NCBI GenBank assembly: GCA_025999215.1
Contig: AP024679.1
Coordinates: 433,082 to 497,081, forward strand
Direction: 5' to 3'
DNA: 64,000 nucleotides
Source: Candidatus Dojkabacteria bacterium
GTDB lineage: Bacteria; Patescibacteriota; Dojkabacteria; J137
Below, one piece after another: positions 14,020 through 64,000 of this stretch. Positions within the stretch are counted from its first letter, which is position 1. Each line of letters opens with the position of its first letter. The position numbers were made by a program, and so were the translations under genes. The notes under the pieces are model-generated. The model did no database searches. It saw only the letters and a list, made by a program, of their open reading frames with translations, and was not told the DNA's origin.

Positions 14020-14690
14020 GTGAGTAATGAAAAAATTAAACAAAAGGCAAAAAAGGTTAATGCGTTGTTAAAAAAAGAATACCCTATAGTTAAAACTCCT
14101 TTGCACCACAAAAATGCCTGGGAACTTTTAATTGCAGTTATATTGTCAGCTCAAACTTTAGATGAAACGGTAAACAAAGTTACTCCAAGGCTTTTTAAGT
14201 TATACAATTCATGTTATGAATTAGCTGGGGCTAATTTGGCTGAAGTAGAAGAAGTTATAAAAGGCGTAAATTATTATAAAACCAAAGCCAAAAATATTAT
14301 CAAGACATCTCAAAAGCTAGTAGAAAATTTTGATGGTAAAGTACCAAATAAAATTGAAGAATTAACAACTCTTCCTGGTGTTGGTAGAAAAACTGCCAAT
14401 GTTATAATAAACGAGTGGTTTTGTAGGCATGATCAGAAAGTTTTACCTCAGGGATTTGTTGTTGATACTCATGTAGCTAGGGTTTCAAAGCGTTTAGGTT
14501 TTACTAAGCATTCTGATCCTACTTAAAATTGAGCAAGATTTAATGAATTTGTTTGATCAGATCTGATTGGCCTGAGTTGAGTTTGAGATTGATTTTTCAC
14601 GGGAGATATAGGTGTACCGCTCGTCAACATTTATGTTGTGAGCATGATAGATTGGAGTAAACTTTGTCAATGTTTATGTTAACATTATGG
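14020..14690 (+). pseudogene. nth: Endonuclease III (Nth) with three or more frameshifts in the C-terminal [4Fe-4S] region.
   Basis: Frame 1 gives the HhH-GPD core through LPGVGRKTANVIIN...VDTHVARVS. The downstream KIEQDLMNLFDQI, DWPELSLRLIFHGRYRCTARQHLCCEHD and KLCQCLC pieces continue the Nth C-terminus in three other frames. Confidence 0.6.
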
Positions 14691-15963
14691 AATTTAATTT
14701 AGTTTCTGAGTATAAACCTGCTGGTGATCAACCACGAGCGATTGATACGCTTTCTAATGGTTTGCTTGCTGGGAATCAAGCACCAAACGCTTGGTTGGTG
14801 CGACCGGAACTGGTAAAACTTTTACAATGGCAAATATCATACAAAATCTTGGGAAACCTGCTTTAATTCTTTCTCACAACAAAACTTTAGCTGCTCAATT
14901 GTTTGCTGAATTTAAAAAATTTTTTCCTTACAATGCTGTTGAGTATTTTGTGAGTTACTACGATTATTATCAGCCTGAGGCTTATGTTCCCTCAAGAGAT
15001 TTGTATATTGAGAAAGATGCCGATATAAACGACACAATTGAGCGGTACAGGTCTTCAGCTAGCCAGTCGCTTTTGACAAGAAAGGATGTGATTGTAATTT
15101 CAACCGTTAGTTGTATCTATGGGCTAGGGAATCCTGCAGATTATTTAGAATTAAGTTTTGAATTTAATGTTGGGGAAAGTTATAAACGCGATAATATTTT
15201 AGCGCGACTAACAGATATGCAGTATGAAAGAAACCAACTTGATTTCATGCCTGGGAGTTTTAGAGCCATTGGTGAGATTATTGATATTTATTTAACAAAT
15301 GCAAATGATGAAGCTGTAAGGTTAGAGTTTTTTGGTGATGAATTGGAATCTATAAAGATAATTAATCCTCTAACAGGCGAGTTTGTAAAAAATTTAAATT
15401 CAGTTATTATTTTTCCTGCCAAACACTATGTAAGTCCACATCATAAACTAATGGAAACGATTGAAACAATAAGAGAAGATATGAAAAAAGAAGTTCAGCA
15501 ATTTTTGGATAAAGGAAAGGTGGTGGAAGCAACGAGACTTAAGCAAAGGGTTGAATATGATTTGGAAATGATTGCTGAAACAGGTTTTGTAAAAGGCATT
15601 GAAAATTATTCTAGATACATTGACAGAAGACCACCCGGAAGTGCGCCATCATGTTTAATTGATTATTTTCCTCATGATTACATTATGTTTATTGATGAAT
15701 CACATATAACTGTTCCGCAAATTGGAGGAATGTACAATGGCGATCGCGCACGGAAACAGAGCTTGGTAGATTATGGTTTTAGGATGAAAGCAGCGCTAGA
15801 TAATCGACCTTTGAAATTTGAAGAATTTGAACAAAAATTAAACCAAGTTATTTACACCACGGCAACGCCAAGGGATTATGAAATTCAGAAAAGCATGAAT
15901 GCAACAGAAGAAATTAGGGAAAAAAGCCCTCAAATATTCAGTGGAAAAATGTTAGAATATTAG
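14687..15963 (+). CDS. uvrB: Excinuclease ABC subunit B, N-terminal roughly 415-residue portion only. There is a -1 frameshift near 14775-14795 and a premature end at 15963.
   Basis: MEFNLVSEYKPAGDQPRAIDTLSNGLLAGN (frame 2) continues as LVGATGTGKTFTMANII...YFVSYYDYYQPEAYVP...[47 protein letters not shown]...YTTATPRDYEIQKS (frame 1), which is canonical UvrB. After EIQKS the frame diverges and stops. Confidence 0.85.
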
Positions 15964-15999
15964 AATGAAAATCAAGATTAGAAATATTTCACAAAAGGA

Positions 16000-16808
16000 A
16001 TGGTGATGGGTCTTGCTGAGGTTATCCCTGGAGTGAGTGGGTCAACCATGGCTTTGGTGATGGGTATTTATGATGATTTCATCAATCTACTCTACTCTTT
16101 TTCAAAGTTGGCGCAAAATTGTGTTGAGTTTTTGTTTCGAAAGAAAAGATTTTTTTGATCTTAAACAAGAGTTGACTGAACTATCTAGAATGGGGTTTTG
16201 CTATACCTTTGTTTTTCGGCATGATTGTGTCAATTTTATCTTTTGCCAATATTTTAAACTATTTCATTGATAAATCACCGGGTTACGTGCTTGCTTTTTT
16301 CTTTGGATTGGTGGTCGCATCGGTGTCAATTCCACTTCAGAGAGTTGGTAAGACCCAACATTTTGAAAGTTCTTTTGTTCTTGCTTCTCTCTTGCTTTTT
16401 TCTATTTTTTGCTTGGAGTTGATCCTATTGAGTTAAACGGTAAGCCAAATTTAGTTTATGTATTTTGTTGGGGGTATGCTTGCCATTTGCGCAATGAGTT
16501 TGCCTGGAATTAGCGGTTCTTTTATTTTGCTATTGTTGGGTTTGTATGAATACATTATTTCTATAATTAAAGATTTGTCTCATTTTAAGTTTAACTTCAG
16601 TGATTTTACTAGGTTGGTTGTTCTTTCTTTTGGTGTGGTGGCTGGATTTGTATTGTTTGTGAGAATACTAAAATGGTTGCTTTCAAAATACGAGGGCGAA
16701 TTGATGGCTTTTCTTGCAGGCTTGATGTTGGCATCGCTAAGAATTTTGTGGCCATTTATCGATAATTCACAGGAAGTTTCGAGAGTTTGGATGCTTATCC
16801 CAAGGTGA
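16000..16808 (+). pseudogene. DUF368 (COG2035) membrane protein gene with three or more frameshifts.
   Basis: The pieces VIPGVSGSTMALVMGIY..., FFGMIVSILSFANILNYFIDKSPGYVLAFFFGLVVAS and LPGISGSFILLLLGLYEYI are successive parts of one DUF368 protein, spread across three frames. Confidence 0.6.
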
Positions 16809-16914
16809 TGTTAGAGTTAAGTAACACTGAACACCTTGTACACGGTTGCAATTATTGTAGCAAGTGCTGTAGCCGTCTTAGTAATCAAAAAGATTTCTGA
16901 TAAAATTTAAGAGG

Positions 16915-62704: not shown

Positions 62705-63232
62705 ATGATAAAATTTTATATGCAAAAATTATCAAAAAAAGAAATTAAAAAAATTTTTAAACATGAGCAAAGAAGCAAATTAATTCATGTGGTTGCAGAA
62801 AATATTCAATATGCCAAAAATGTAGCGAGTATATTTAGAATATGCGATGCTGGAGGAGTTTCAAGACTATATTTAACAGGAATATCGCATACGCCACCAT
62901 TTGGTAAAGAATTGCGGAAAGTATCTCGAAATAAAGAAAAAAGTGTTGAGTGGCATTATTTTGAAAGCTCTGTGAAATTACTTTCTAGTCTCAAAAGTCA
63001 AGGTTTTAAAATAATTGCTATTGAACTTTGTAGAGAGTCTTTTCCTATTCAAGAATTAAGAGACAAAATCAAACCTTTTGATAAAATTTGTCTGGTTGTA
63101 GGTAATGAAGTTTATGGAGTTACTAGTCGTACTTTGGACGTTTGCGACATGGCAACAGTCATTCCAATGTATGGCAAAGGCGCAAGCCTCAATGTAACTA
63201 GTAGCTTAGCAATAGCGCTTTTCAACTCCTAA
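62705..63232 (+). CDS. SpoU/TrmH-family RNA 2'-O-methyltransferase (TrmL-like).
   Basis: The SPOUT motifs LVVGNEVYGV and VIPMYGKGASLNVTSSLAIALF are present. Confidence 0.7.
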   Translation: MIKFYMQKLSKKEIKKIFKHEQRSKLIHVVAENIQYAKNVASIFRICDAGGVSRLYLTGISHTPPFGKELRKVSRNKEKSVEWHYFESSVKLLSSLKSQGFKIIAIELCRESFPIQELRDKIKPFDKICLVVGNEVYGVTSRTLDVCDMATVIPMYGKGASLNVTSSLAIALFNS

Positions 63233-63239
63233 AATTACT

Positions 63240-63683
63240 TTAAAATGGCAAATCATCAGGATCTATAGAATCATCTACAGAATCATCATTATTCGATGTT
63301 GCCTTGGTATCAGAGCTAGATTCTGCTTTGTTTTCATCAGATCCACCTTCGTATCTTGCCACCAAAATCACATCGTCAGCATTTACCTCTGTTTTGTATT
63401 GCTTTTGACCTTCACTGTTTTCCCAGCTTCTAGTTTGTAGTCTTCCTTCAATGTAAACTCTGGTGCCTTTTTTTATTCTTTGCGCAAGAGCTTCTGCATT
63501 TCTCCAAACCACAATGTTGTGGTAAGTAACTTCGTTTTCCCATTCATCATTTTTTTTGTAACTTCTGTTGGTTGCTATTCCAAAGTTTAAAACAGCGCTT
63601 CCGCTAGGTGTAAATCTCAAATCAGGCTCATTGGTTACATTCCCCATTAAAATTACTTTGTTGACGTCTCCGAACATGCTCAT
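63240..63683 (-). CDS. ssb: Single-stranded DNA-binding protein.
   Basis: It has an OB-fold (NKVILMGNVTNEPDLRFTPSGSAVLNFGIATNR...WHNIVVW) and an acidic tail ending DDLPF. Confidence 0.9.
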   Translation of the reverse strand: MSMFGDVNKVILMGNVTNEPDLRFTPSGSAVLNFGIATNRSYKKNDEWENEVTYHNIVVWRNAEALAQRIKKGTRVYIEGRLQTRSWENSEGQKQYKTEVNADDVILVARYEGGSDENKAESSSDTKATSNNDDSVDDSIDPDDLPF

Positions 63684-63779
63684 TTTTTAAAATTAATAAA
63701 TATTTACTTATTATAGTTTTTTTTGATTAAAATGTAAAACTTAAAAATTCTAAAAAAATTTAAATGTTATAATCAAAAT

Positions 63780-64000
63780 ATGAGTTTAATTCTTCCAAAA
63801 AATTACAAAGGTGTTGTCAAACAAGTGATTAGACCAACTGGGCTTTTGGATCCATTGGTTGAGGTCAGGCCAACCATGCCTGAAACTTTTGACAAACTTA
63901 AATTATCTTTACGAGAAAATGGATATGAAGACATGCCCACCTACAAAAAAACAACATGGTTAAAACCACAAATTCCTGATTTAATCGAAGAAATTGAAAA
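63780..64000 (+). CDS. uvrB: Excinuclease ABC subunit B, C-terminal portion (3' truncated by the window). It has its own ATG and an extended -10 promoter.
   Basis: [32 protein letters not shown] matches UvrB ...[23 protein letters not shown], exactly where the 14.7-16.0 kb copy breaks off. TGTTATAAT lies 9 nt upstream of the ATG. Confidence 0.8.
   Translation, partial: [73 protein letters not shown]

What the first reader, a model, noticed from the sequence alone, without database searches (positions are those of the whole stretch)
14687..64000. uvrB is split into two same-strand pieces 47.8 kb apart
The ORF at 14687-15963 encodes canonical UvrB residues 1 to about 415. Its motifs include P-loop GATGTGKTF, YFVSYYDYYQPEAYVP and [23 protein letters not shown], and it ends ...TTATPRDYEIQKS before running into non-homologous sequence and a stop. 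The very next UvrB residues (…[22 protein letters not shown]…, equivalent to E. coli [23 protein letters not shown]) begin a new ATG-initiated ORF at 63780. That ORF is on the same strand and is preceded by its own extended -10 promoter (TGTTATAAT). The intervening 47.8 kb carries about 40 genes, including alaS, uvrC, nrdJ, mraY, tgt and gpmI, and no recognisable integrase or transposase. The C-piece start (PKNYKG) loosely echoes the N-piece end (PRDYEIQKS), consistent with an imperfect junction duplication. Three explanations fit: a natural two-polypeptide UvrB produced by a large insertion or translocation, a mobile or rearranged segment without obvious mobility genes, or a chimeric assembly join.
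Basis: partly seen in the sequence, partly recalled or inferred. Interest (0 to 1): 0.8.

Follow-up and report, generated by a model that had tools for sequence, protein, structure and literature searches.

The report
Naturally split UvrB repair helicase
In this Candidatus Dojkabacteria genome, and in more than a hundred related lineages, the DNA-repair helicase UvrB is encoded as two separate, conserved genes cut between its two motor halves, so the "broken" gene is an old lineage trait and not an assembly error or a mobile insertion.

Summary
The split is real and old. The window comes from Candidatus Dojkabacteria bacterium KatS3mg085. Its uvrB N-half (14687-15963) and C-half (from 63780; 295 aa in full) lie on the same strand, 47,816 bp apart.

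More than 110 distinct N-only proteins (398-441 aa) and 120 C-only proteins (291-329 aa) occur in related assemblies. All helicase motifs are kept. Non-synonymous change (pN 0.12-0.13) is far below saturated synonymous change (pS 0.69-0.77), as in housekeeping neighbours.

Relatives form a series:
- fused uvrB with a long linker;
- halves adjacent, 298-bp spacer;
- one gene between the halves;
- 47.8 kb apart (this window);
- 280 kb apart on opposite strands.

Ancestral neighbours stay attached: nth with the N-half, mnmA with the C-half. The 47.8 kb holds housekeeping genes, including uvrC. It has no integrase and no att-like repeats.

- The N-piece is not one ORF. Two 1-nt insertions (GGG at 14771-14773, about 14789) break it before the P-loop. 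They belong to about 10 frame disruptions confined to four adjacent genes, including essential alaS, so they are probably consensus errors.
- The N-tail and C-head are conserved features. They are not junk or a junction duplication.

Heterodimer assembly is inferred, not shown.

The parts
14020..14648 (+). nth (endonuclease III, HhH-GPD). It is the ancestral upstream neighbour of uvrB and is read in three frames here.
   Evidence: Pfam HhH-GPD. tblastn of the relative's 237-aa Nth hits frames 1, 2 and 3 at 14035-14648. nth is upstream of uvrB or uvrB-N in L002, L005, L007 and L009.
14687..14779 (+). uvrB-N, first 31 codons (MEFNLVSEYKPAGDQPRAIDTLSNGLLAG...), out of frame with the rest
   Evidence: ORF list. 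tblastn shows residues 1-31 in frame 2.
14771..14789 (+). Two 1-nt insertions relative to relatives: GGG at 14771-14773 versus GG, and an extra base near 14789. They lie just upstream of the Walker A codons.
   Evidence: DNA alignment A1, columns 88 and 106, against L002, L005 and L007. Removing both restores ...LLAGIKHQTLVGATGTGKTF and a 424-aa ORF.
14791..15963 (+). uvrB-N main ORF (390 aa): Walker A, beta-hairpin, UvrA-interaction domain 2, Walker B DESH and motif III TATP. It corresponds to UvrB domains 1a, 1b and 2.
   Evidence: Pfam UvrB_inter 6e-30 and ResIII. PDB 2fdc_A residues 38-411, E 4e-146. TIGR00631 positions 35-405, 579 bits.
15895..15963 (+). N-piece tail MNATEEIREKSPQIFSGKMLEY plus stop. 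It is conserved within the 424-429 aa subgroup.
   Evidence: Tail comparison. In the AlphaFold2 model of P0002 the start of the tail continues a helix (residues 396-412) and the last 7 residues are low-confidence coil.
15964..63779 (.). 47,816-bp interval of ordinary chromosomal genes. It holds a DUF368 gene and alaS (both frame-disrupted), a P-type ATPase, an ATP-dependent ligase, uvrC, a mraY-like gene, nrdJ and nrdR, a Mur ligase, UDG, tgt, gpmI, DHH, SpoU, SSB and tRNA-Cys.
   Evidence: Pfam scans. tRNAs. No terminal direct repeats. The stretches next to each half are colinear with relative loci: L002 covers window 13816-21776, and L003 covers 57165-58932 and 61912-64000.
36872..38425 (-). 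uvrC (517 aa; GIY-YIG, UVR and UvrC RNase H domains), the partner nuclease, intact
   Evidence: Pfam.
63765..63773 (+). Extended -10-like TGTTATAAT, 6 nt upstream of the C-piece ATG. It is a possible promoter for a leaderless mRNA.
   Evidence: Sequence. The same TGTTATAAT plus 6 nt plus ATG is present in relative L003 although synonymous sites are saturated between the two genomes. TGTTAAAAT plus 6-7 nt plus ATG occurs in L008 and L007. The consensus scan found no -35 element.
63780..64000 (+). uvrB-C, first 73 codons of a 295-aa gene. It corresponds to UvrB domain 3 (motifs IV-VI) plus the UVR domain, with the conserved head LPKNYKG and a clade-specific 29-aa insertion after VEVRP.
   Evidence: Translation. 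Full gene in L001, with Helicase_C, UvrB and UVR domains. PDB 3uwx_B residues 430-453 and 453-680. TIGR00631 positions 426-657, 347 bits.

Best explanation
This is a natural, ancient gene fission of uvrB that characterises a large clade of Candidatus Dojkabacteria (candidate division WS6, Patescibacteria).

The cut lies in the loop after helicase motif III, between Bacillus caldotenax UvrB residues S404 and G406. That is at or just before the junction of the two RecA-like motor halves.

- **UvrB-N (about 412-424 aa)** keeps Walker A, Walker B, the damage-verifying beta-hairpin and the UvrA-binding domain 2.
- **UvrB-C (about 295-300 aa)** keeps motifs IV-VI, including the arginines of QxxGRAAR that complete the ATP site, and the UVR domain that recruits UvrC.

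Both genes are maintained by purifying selection, and each has its own start and upstream signals.

Inferred, not shown: the two polypeptides associate non-covalently to rebuild the ATP site at the 1a/3 interface and act as a two-subunit UvrB with UvrA and UvrC.

The fission arose in place, in a lineage whose linker had already lengthened and whose domain 3 had gained a 29-aa helical insertion. Later rearrangements moved the halves apart, to 47.8 kb in this genome.

The two frameshifts at the 5' end of the N-gene in this window are most likely consensus errors in a locally poor stretch of a PacBio HiFi metaFlye assembly.
For: Breadth:
- 114 N-only clusters (398-441 aa) at 59-77% identity, and 120 C-only clusters (291-329 aa) at 64-83% identity. 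Many are named Dojkabacteria by their sources.

Selection:
- Window versus relative: N-half pN 0.134 and pS 0.765; C-half pN 0.117 and pS 0.687. murA and the P-type ATPase give the same picture.
- Walker A, the beta-hairpin and motif III are present in 114 of 114 N-pieces. Motifs IV, V and VI are present in 120 of 120 C-pieces. The UVR motif is present in 114 of 120.

Cut site:
- The PDB alignments place the end of N homology at Bca S404 and the start of C homology at G406.
- In the AlphaFold2 model of the fused relative P0102, the junction (residues 414-426) is the least confident stretch between the two motor halves (pLDDT 67-76), flanked by confident structure.

Graded series:
- Fused P0102 sits between nth and hpf-mnmA.
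- In L092 the halves are adjacent, with a 298-bp spacer holding a hairpin and an AT-rich region.
- In L091 one CarS-like gene lies between them.
- In this window they are 47.8 kb apart.
- In ERZ25039495 they are 280 kb apart on opposite strands.

Other support:
- A close relative has the same gene order beside both halves, with intact nth, a 424-aa uvrB-N, DUF368 and alaS.
- uvrC is intact in the window.
- Published background: the UvrB nucleotide site lies at the domain 1a/3 interface and Walker A K45 is essential (PMC7835731). Domain 3 forms half of the ATP site (PMC3458569).
Against: - No direct evidence shows that the halves bind each other. No complex model could be run and no expression data were available.
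- In this particular genome the N-gene as assembled is frameshifted before the P-loop. The deposited annotation starts after Walker A (378 aa). If that is real, this strain's N-half would lack ATPase activity.
- The NJ gene tree does not make split forms monophyletic (0 of 200 bootstraps), so the history is unresolved: either two or more fissions, or one fission followed by re-fusions.
- Only the top 120 hits per search were seen.
- A divergent second uvrB elsewhere in the 862-kb genome was not formally excluded.
Confidence: 0.8

Rival explanations
1. Assembly artefact: a chimeric join or misassembly separated two parts of one contiguous uvrB.
For:: the region next to the N-piece (14.0-18.8 kb) has many frame disruptions, which shows that local assembly quality may be poor. 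L001 is the same strain, so it is not an independent sample.
Against: - More than 230 protein clusters from independent assemblies (NCBI, JGI, ENA, Logan) end and start at the same residues.
- A relative shows the same neighbours on both sides.
- Both pieces have proper stops, starts and conserved termini.
Confidence: 0.01
2. A mobile or integrative 47.8-kb element inserted into uvrB and split it.
For:: the pieces are on the same strand and abut at consecutive UvrB residues, as an insertion would produce.
Against: - No integrase, transposase or recombinase domain was found.
- There are no direct repeats at the termini.
- GC content is 0.27-0.37 without a step.
- The content is core housekeeping genes.
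- The separation varies from 0.3 kb to 280 kb among relatives, and the halves are adjacent in early-branching ones.
Confidence: 0.02
3. Pseudogene remnants: uvrB was broken and both pieces are decaying. A narrower version says that only in this strain the N-half has recently been inactivated by real frameshifts.
For:: two frameshifts lie before the P-loop in the window, and neighbouring nth, DUF368 and alaS are also disrupted; the deposited protein lacks Walker A.
Against: Lineage-wide decay is excluded by motif conservation and by non-synonymous change far below synonymous change.

Against the strain-specific version:
- About 10 disruptions are confined to about 3.5 kb, between intact genes, and they include essential single-copy alaS.
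- Protein identity to the relative is not depressed there.
- The genome is a metaFlye assembly of HiFi reads filtered only at Q20 or better (PMC9671151).
- Logan contigs of the same run hold the C-half but no version of the N-half or alaS. This would fit low coverage there, although the absence may only reflect how the look-ups work.
Confidence: 0.12
4. Split-intein or 'fractured gene' arrangement: the halves are ligated after translation into a single UvrB.
For:: natural fractured genes with split inteins exist (PMC2677866); in L091 a gene sits between the halves.
Against: - N-tails run only about 7-25 aa past the last UvrB-homologous residue, and C-heads have about 6-10 aa before canonical sequence. 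This is far too short for intein halves.
- There is no terminal HN followed by Cys, Ser or Thr.
- The intervening gene in L091 is CarS-like, not a homing endonuclease, and the L092 spacer has no ORF.
Confidence: 0.01
5. Sub- or neo-functionalisation: the halves no longer work together. For example, the N-half could act as an Mfd-like UvrA-binding module and the C-half as a separate UvrC adaptor.
For:: Mfd carries a UvrB-homology module (D1a, D1b, D2) without domain 3, so the N-half fold can work without domain 3 (PMC7835731); the genes are unlinked and on opposite strands in some genomes.
Against: Both halves keep every ATPase motif, and these only make sense together: Walker A and B in the N-half, and motif VI arginines in the C-half. 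The halves co-occur on the same contigs.
Confidence: 0.06

Closest known systems
Canonical single-chain UvrB (TIGR00631; for example Bacillus caldotenax 2FDC/1D9Z, E. coli UvrB)
   Same: All domains and motifs are present in the same order. The N-half aligns to Bca residues 38-411 at E 4e-146. The C-half aligns to residues 428-655 at about E 1e-82. uvrC is nearby.
   Different: It is encoded as two genes cut at Bca S404/G406. Neither half reaches the equivalog cutoff of 750 bits (N 579-635 bits, C 347 bits). It also has a longer helix after motif III, a conserved LP..Y.G head and a 29-aa insertion in domain 3.
Naturally split genes of reduced genomes, such as the split reverse gyrase and alaS of Nanoarchaeum equitans (from my own knowledge; not checked here)
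   Same: A normally single-chain enzyme is encoded by two unlinked genes in a small-genome, probably host-dependent lineage, and is presumed to reassemble non-covalently.
   Different: This case is bacterial (Patescibacteria). The cut falls inside the helicase motor, between the RecA-like halves. The lineage also preserves intermediate arrangements: fused, adjacent and dispersed.
Mfd UvrB-homology module (D1a, D1b, D2)
   Same: A UvrB N-half fold exists without domain 3 and binds UvrA (PMC7835731).
   Different: The Mfd module has lost the beta-hairpin. The Dojkabacteria N-half retains the hairpin in 114 of 114 sequences, along with Walker A and motif III, and Walker B DE[SA]H in 105 of 114 by a strict pattern.
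Fractured genes with split inteins (Dassa et al. 2009, PMC2677866)
   Same: A gene is split into two ORFs, sometimes with another gene between them.
   Different: There are no intein halves and no homing endonuclease.

Membership tests
UvrB (excinuclease ABC subunit B) | Walker A / motif I GxxGxGKT | tested here: met
   GATGTGKTF is present in ORF 14791-15963. G.TG[ST]GKT occurs in 114 of 114 N-pieces. In this window it is cut off from the first 31 codons by two 1-nt insertions.
UvrB (excinuclease ABC subunit B) | Beta-hairpin YYDYYQPEAY and Walker B DESH | tested here: met
   Both are present in the window ORF. The hairpin occurs in 114 of 114 N-pieces. DE[SA]H[IVLM]T occurs in 105 of 114 by a strict pattern.
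UvrB (excinuclease ABC subunit B) | UvrA-interaction domain 2 (PF17757) | tested here: met
   E 6e-30, full profile coverage 2-91 of 91.
UvrB (excinuclease ABC subunit B) | Domain 3 with helicase motifs IV-VI (PF00271, PF12344) | tested here: met
   The C-piece in L001 carries Helicase_C and UvrB domains. TLTK, GINLLREGLD.PEV and Q..GRAAR occur in 120 of 120 C-pieces.
UvrB (excinuclease ABC subunit B) | C-terminal UVR domain for UvrC binding | tested here: met
   PF02151 gives a weak hit on the C-piece. The FE.AA..RD pattern occurs in 114 of 120. The C-piece aligns to 3uwx_B through residue 680.
UvrB (excinuclease ABC subunit B) | One polypeptide of about 650-690 aa reaching the equivalog cutoff (TIGR00631, 750 bits) | tested here: not met
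   N-half: 579 bits (window) and 635 bits (P0002). C-half: 347 bits. The fused relative P0102 scores 926 bits.
UvrB (excinuclease ABC subunit B) | UvrA-dependent loading, DNA-dependent ATPase, pre-incision complex with UvrC | not testable with these tools
   Requires biochemistry or genetics.
Split-intein / fractured gene | An N-intein following the N-extein, a C-intein ending in HN plus a nucleophile, and often a homing endonuclease between them | tested here: not met
   Tails run about 7-25 aa past the last UvrB-homologous residue and heads have about 6-10 aa before canonical sequence. There is no HN plus Cys, Ser or Thr. No homing endonuclease is present.
Integrative mobile element insertion | Integrase or transposase, flanking direct repeats, atypical composition, absence from relatives | tested here: not met
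   no mobility domain; no terminal repeats; no GC step; same gene order beside both halves in a relative.
Pseudogene | Relaxed selection and loss of catalytic motifs | tested here: not met
   Non-synonymous change is far below saturated synonymous change, and the motifs are conserved.
Pseudogene | Frame disruptions in this copy | tested here: inconclusive
   Two 1-nt insertions are present, within a cluster that also hits alaS. Reads were not available.

The most novel reading that the evidence does not exclude
Dojkabacteria run nucleotide excision repair with an obligate two-subunit UvrB. Its SF2 helicase ATP site forms between two separately encoded, unlinked RecA-like halves. The fission happened at a pre-lengthened linker and may have occurred, or been reversed, more than once. 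The C-subunit carries the arginine fingers and the UvrC-docking UVR domain. It could therefore act as a dissociable switch that licenses ATP hydrolysis and incision only after the N-subunit has been loaded by UvrA.
Probability: 0.5. Interest if true: 0.72.

Novelty: new variant of a known kind. Interest (0 to 1): 0.6.

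Why it matters
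- **Helicase mechanism.** UvrB is treated as a universally single-chain helicase. A whole bacterial lineage that keeps it as two genes is a natural experiment on whether an SF2 motor can work with its two RecA halves as separate subunits. The fused, adjacent and dispersed relatives are ready-made controls.
- **Gene fission.** The series is an unusually clean record: the linker lengthens, the gene splits in place, and the halves then disperse while each keeps its old neighbour.
- **Annotation.** Neither half reaches the UvrB model cutoff. Pipelines name them "DEAD/DEAH box helicase family protein" and "UvrB/UvrC motif-containing protein". Pathway reconstructions may therefore wrongly score excision repair as incomplete in Dojkabacteria. 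Completeness tools may misread uvrB as fragmented.

Tried and rejected
1. **Genome-contig scan with P0023.** The pattern hits were swamped by Chloroflexi UvrB. Only one split locus (L011) and two fused Patescibacteria loci (L024, L025) were useful, so the split could not be mapped across GTDB Dojkabacteria species.
2. **Looking for an independent read-based version of the frameshifted region.**
   - The look-up of the adjacent 852-aa ATPase found nothing on record.
   - The search with the 303-aa alaS fragment returned only the NCBI entry at 100% identity.
   - The frameshift question stays open.
3. **Does the 22-aa N-tail (..FSGKMLEY) retain the last beta-strand of domain 1a?** The AlphaFold2 model of P0002 gives a helix followed by low-confidence coil, so this is not supported.
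4. **Junction duplication (PKNYKG echoing PRDYEIQKS).** Rejected. Both segments occur once each, in order, in the fused relative P0102, and each is conserved on its own.
5. **Split intein.** Rejected.
6. **att-like repeats at the termini.** None found.
7. **Literature.** No paper in the held library combines Dojkabacteria or WS6 with UvrB, or describes a split uvrB.

Full report
**Source and observation**

The window comes from Candidatus Dojkabacteria bacterium KatS3mg085. The best hits to both halves are its hypothetical proteins KatS3mg085_434 and _478, on an 862,240-bp contig. That genome is a metaFlye assembly of PacBio HiFi reads from Katase hot-spring sediment (PMC9671151).

A UvrB N-half lies at 14687-15963 (+). 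A UvrB C-half starts at 63780 (+) and runs off the window. The full C gene is 295 aa. It carries Helicase_C, UvrB and UVR domains and is followed by mnmA. This was read from L001, a Logan contig that is 100% identical to window 60439-64000, so it is the same strain built by a different assembler. The gap between the halves is 47,816 bp.

**Corrections to the observation**

The N-piece is not one ORF. The first 31 codons (14687-14779) are in a different frame from the 390-codon ORF 14791-15963. Aligned to three relatives, the window has two single-base insertions. One is in GGG at 14771-14773, where the relatives have GG. The other is near 14789. Removing both gives ...LLAGIKHQTLVGATGTGKTF and a 424-aa protein, the length of the closest relatives.

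These are not isolated. tblastn with the proteins of a close relative shows several neighbouring genes read in more than one frame:
- nth is read in three frames.
- The DUF368 gene is read in two frames, with an internal stop.
- alaS is in four segments.

The flanking genes murA, murB, mutL and the P-type ATPase are intact. That makes about ten disruptions in about 3.5 kb, and they include an essential single-copy aminoacyl-tRNA synthetase. Protein identity to the relative is not depressed in this stretch. I read this as a locally poor consensus, since the reads were filtered only at Q20 or better. I could not verify it. Neither the N-half nor alaS of this strain has a Logan version, although the C-half does.

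**The split is lineage-wide**

The N-half search returned 114 distinct clusters of 398-441 aa at 59-77% identity that stop at the same place. Full-length UvrB (652-674 aa) appears only at 64% identity or lower. The C-half search returned 120 clusters of 291-329 aa at 64-83% identity that begin at the same place. Many are labelled Dojkabacteria by their sources. N and C halves share contigs, judged from contig lengths.

All N-pieces keep Walker A, the beta-hairpin and motif III. All C-pieces keep motifs IV, V and VI.

Between the window and a relative, synonymous sites are saturated (pS 0.69-0.77). Non-synonymous differences are few (pN 0.134 for N and 0.117 for C). murA and the ATPase give the same picture. 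Both halves are therefore functional genes, not debris.

**Where the cut is**

Against B. caldotenax UvrB, N homology ends at S404 and C homology begins at G406. This is just after motif III (SATP) and its helix, and before [14 protein letters not shown].

In the AlphaFold2 model of the fused relative P0102 (pLDDT 88.5), residues 398-413 form a helix. Residues 414-426 are a coil and the least confident stretch between the two motor halves (pLDDT 67-76). Residues 427-429 form a short strand. Most N-tails end at the end of that helix (S.xSAKEVLG). C-heads begin at the equivalent of L420, with LP(K/E)(N/D)Y.G in 116 of 120 sequences.

The window's 22-aa tail belongs to a subgroup pattern..P..F.GK.L.Y. 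In the model of P0002 (pLDDT 89.5) the tail continues the helix and then becomes coil.

A 29-aa insertion after VEVRP is modelled as confident helices (pLDDT 97 or higher). It is present in all split forms and in the fused relatives P0102 and P0115. It is absent from the more distant fused P0117, and by eye from P0119.

**How the split arose**

Genomic contexts give a graded series:
- The fused P0102 sits between nth (upstream) and hpf-mnmA (downstream).
- In L092 the halves are adjacent on one strand, separated by 298 bp. The spacer has no ORF. It holds a hairpin (CTCGCCGCAT...ATGCGGCGAG) and an AT-rich stretch.
- In L091 a single CarS-like gene lies between the halves.
- In this window, 43 genes lie between them.
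- In a 1.14-Mb genome they are about 280 kb apart on opposite strands.

Throughout the series, nth and alaS stay near the N-half, and mnmA (with SpoU or hpf) stays near the C-half. A relative at 77-83% protein identity has the same gene order as the window beside both halves. In that relative nth, uvrB-N (424 aa), DUF368 and alaS are all intact.

Fused Patescibacteria outgroups already have long linkers, with 31-41 residues from SATP to RPTG against about 20 in Chloroflexi.

A concatenated N plus C neighbour-joining tree (644 columns, 200 bootstraps) gives these results:
- The dispersed-split clade has 100% support.
- That clade groups with the fused P0102 and P0115 at 80%, to the exclusion of the adjacent-split L091 and L092.
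- All split forms are never monophyletic (0 of 200).

So there were either two or more fissions at the same linker, or one fission followed by re-fusions of still-adjacent halves. A single-protein NJ tree cannot decide between these.

**Rejected alternatives**

- *Chimeric assembly.* Excluded by the number of independent assemblies that show the same termini.
- *Mobile insertion.* There are no mobility domains in the interval, no terminal repeats and no GC step. The content is housekeeping, including uvrC at 36872-38425, and the distance between halves varies among relatives.
- *Split intein.* The tails and heads are far too short and lack the catalytic residues.
- *Lineage-wide pseudogene.* Excluded by the evidence for selection.

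**Mechanism**

Shown: there are two genes. Motifs I-III, the hairpin and the UvrA-binding domain are on one. Motifs IV-VI and the UVR domain are on the other. The C gene has its own conserved extended -10-like element (TGTTATAAT) 6 nt before the ATG. The same arrangement occurs in relative L003, and similar ones occur at other Dojkabacteria genes. This suggests leaderless transcripts.

Inferred: the halves form a heterodimer that rebuilds the ATP site. Published work places that site at the domain 1a/3 interface, and Walker A K45 and the domain 3 arginines are essential (PMC7835731; PMC3458569).

Possible extra glue, all untested:
- the C-head strand completing the N-half sheet (domain boundary recalled from memory);
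- the lengthened helix after motif III;
- the 29-aa insertion in domain 3.

**Novelty**

Searches of the held literature found no description of a split uvrB, and no paper mentions UvrB together with Dojkabacteria or WS6. Neither half reaches the TIGR00631 cutoff: N scores 579-635 bits and C scores 347 bits against a cutoff of 750. This explains the generic names in public annotation.

I rate this as a new variant of a known kind. The protein family is canonical, but its two-gene architecture and the preserved evolutionary intermediates are not described.

Noticed in passing
window 14020-18834: About ten frame disruptions are confined to four consecutive genes: nth, uvrB-N, a DUF368/VCA0040-like gene, and alaS. 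Flanking genes are intact, and a relative has all four genes intact. This is probably a poorly supported consensus stretch of the HiFi metaFlye assembly, but a real decay island is not excluded.
   Followed up: partly
window 9668-12398: 233-nt direct repeats (9668-9900 and 12166-12398, 88% identical) flank a 674-aa ORF (10089-12113, minus strand, no Pfam hit). That ORF contains a run of 93-nt (31-aa) tandem repeats at about 10593-11648. The relative L002 has no counterpart for window 9752-13816 apart from a tRNA-Phe match, which suggests a recent insertion or duplication.
   Followed up: partly
window 63765-63782; L003 5985-6003; L008, L007 and L011 upstream of their starts: Extended -10-like motifs (TGTTATAAT, TGTTAAAAT, TGGTATAAT) sit 6-7 nt upstream of start codons, with no Shine-Dalgarno sequence, at several Dojkabacteria genes. 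This suggests that leaderless mRNAs are common in this lineage.
   Followed up: partly
window 29887-33497: Three consecutive ORFs of 395-404 aa are present. The last two carry C-terminal T4SS-pilin-like domains and share a 295-nt repeat at their 3' ends (31977-32271 and 33204-33498, 92% identical).
   Followed up: no
window 41130-44744 (-): nrdJ is unusually long (1204 aa). The reductase barrel domain matches in two stretches, and a TSCPD domain lies at residues 984-1078. Possible insertions or an intein were not examined.
   Followed up: no
window 33499-35232: An ATP-dependent DNA ligase (N, adenylation and C domains) is encoded in this bacterial genome, close to uvrC and UDG.
   Followed up: no
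L009 9361-9483: In the fused relative P0102, the UVR motif is called as a separate 40-aa ORF just after the 668-aa uvrB. This is a frameshift, a stop or a sequencing error near the 3' end.
   Followed up: no
L092 7267-7564: The 298-bp spacer between the adjacent uvrB halves contains a nested inverted repeat (CTCGCCGCAT...ATGCGGCGAG, with AAATGTTTT...AAAACATTT inside it) followed by an AT-rich stretch. It looks like a terminator plus promoter inserted into the linker-coding region.
   Followed up: partly
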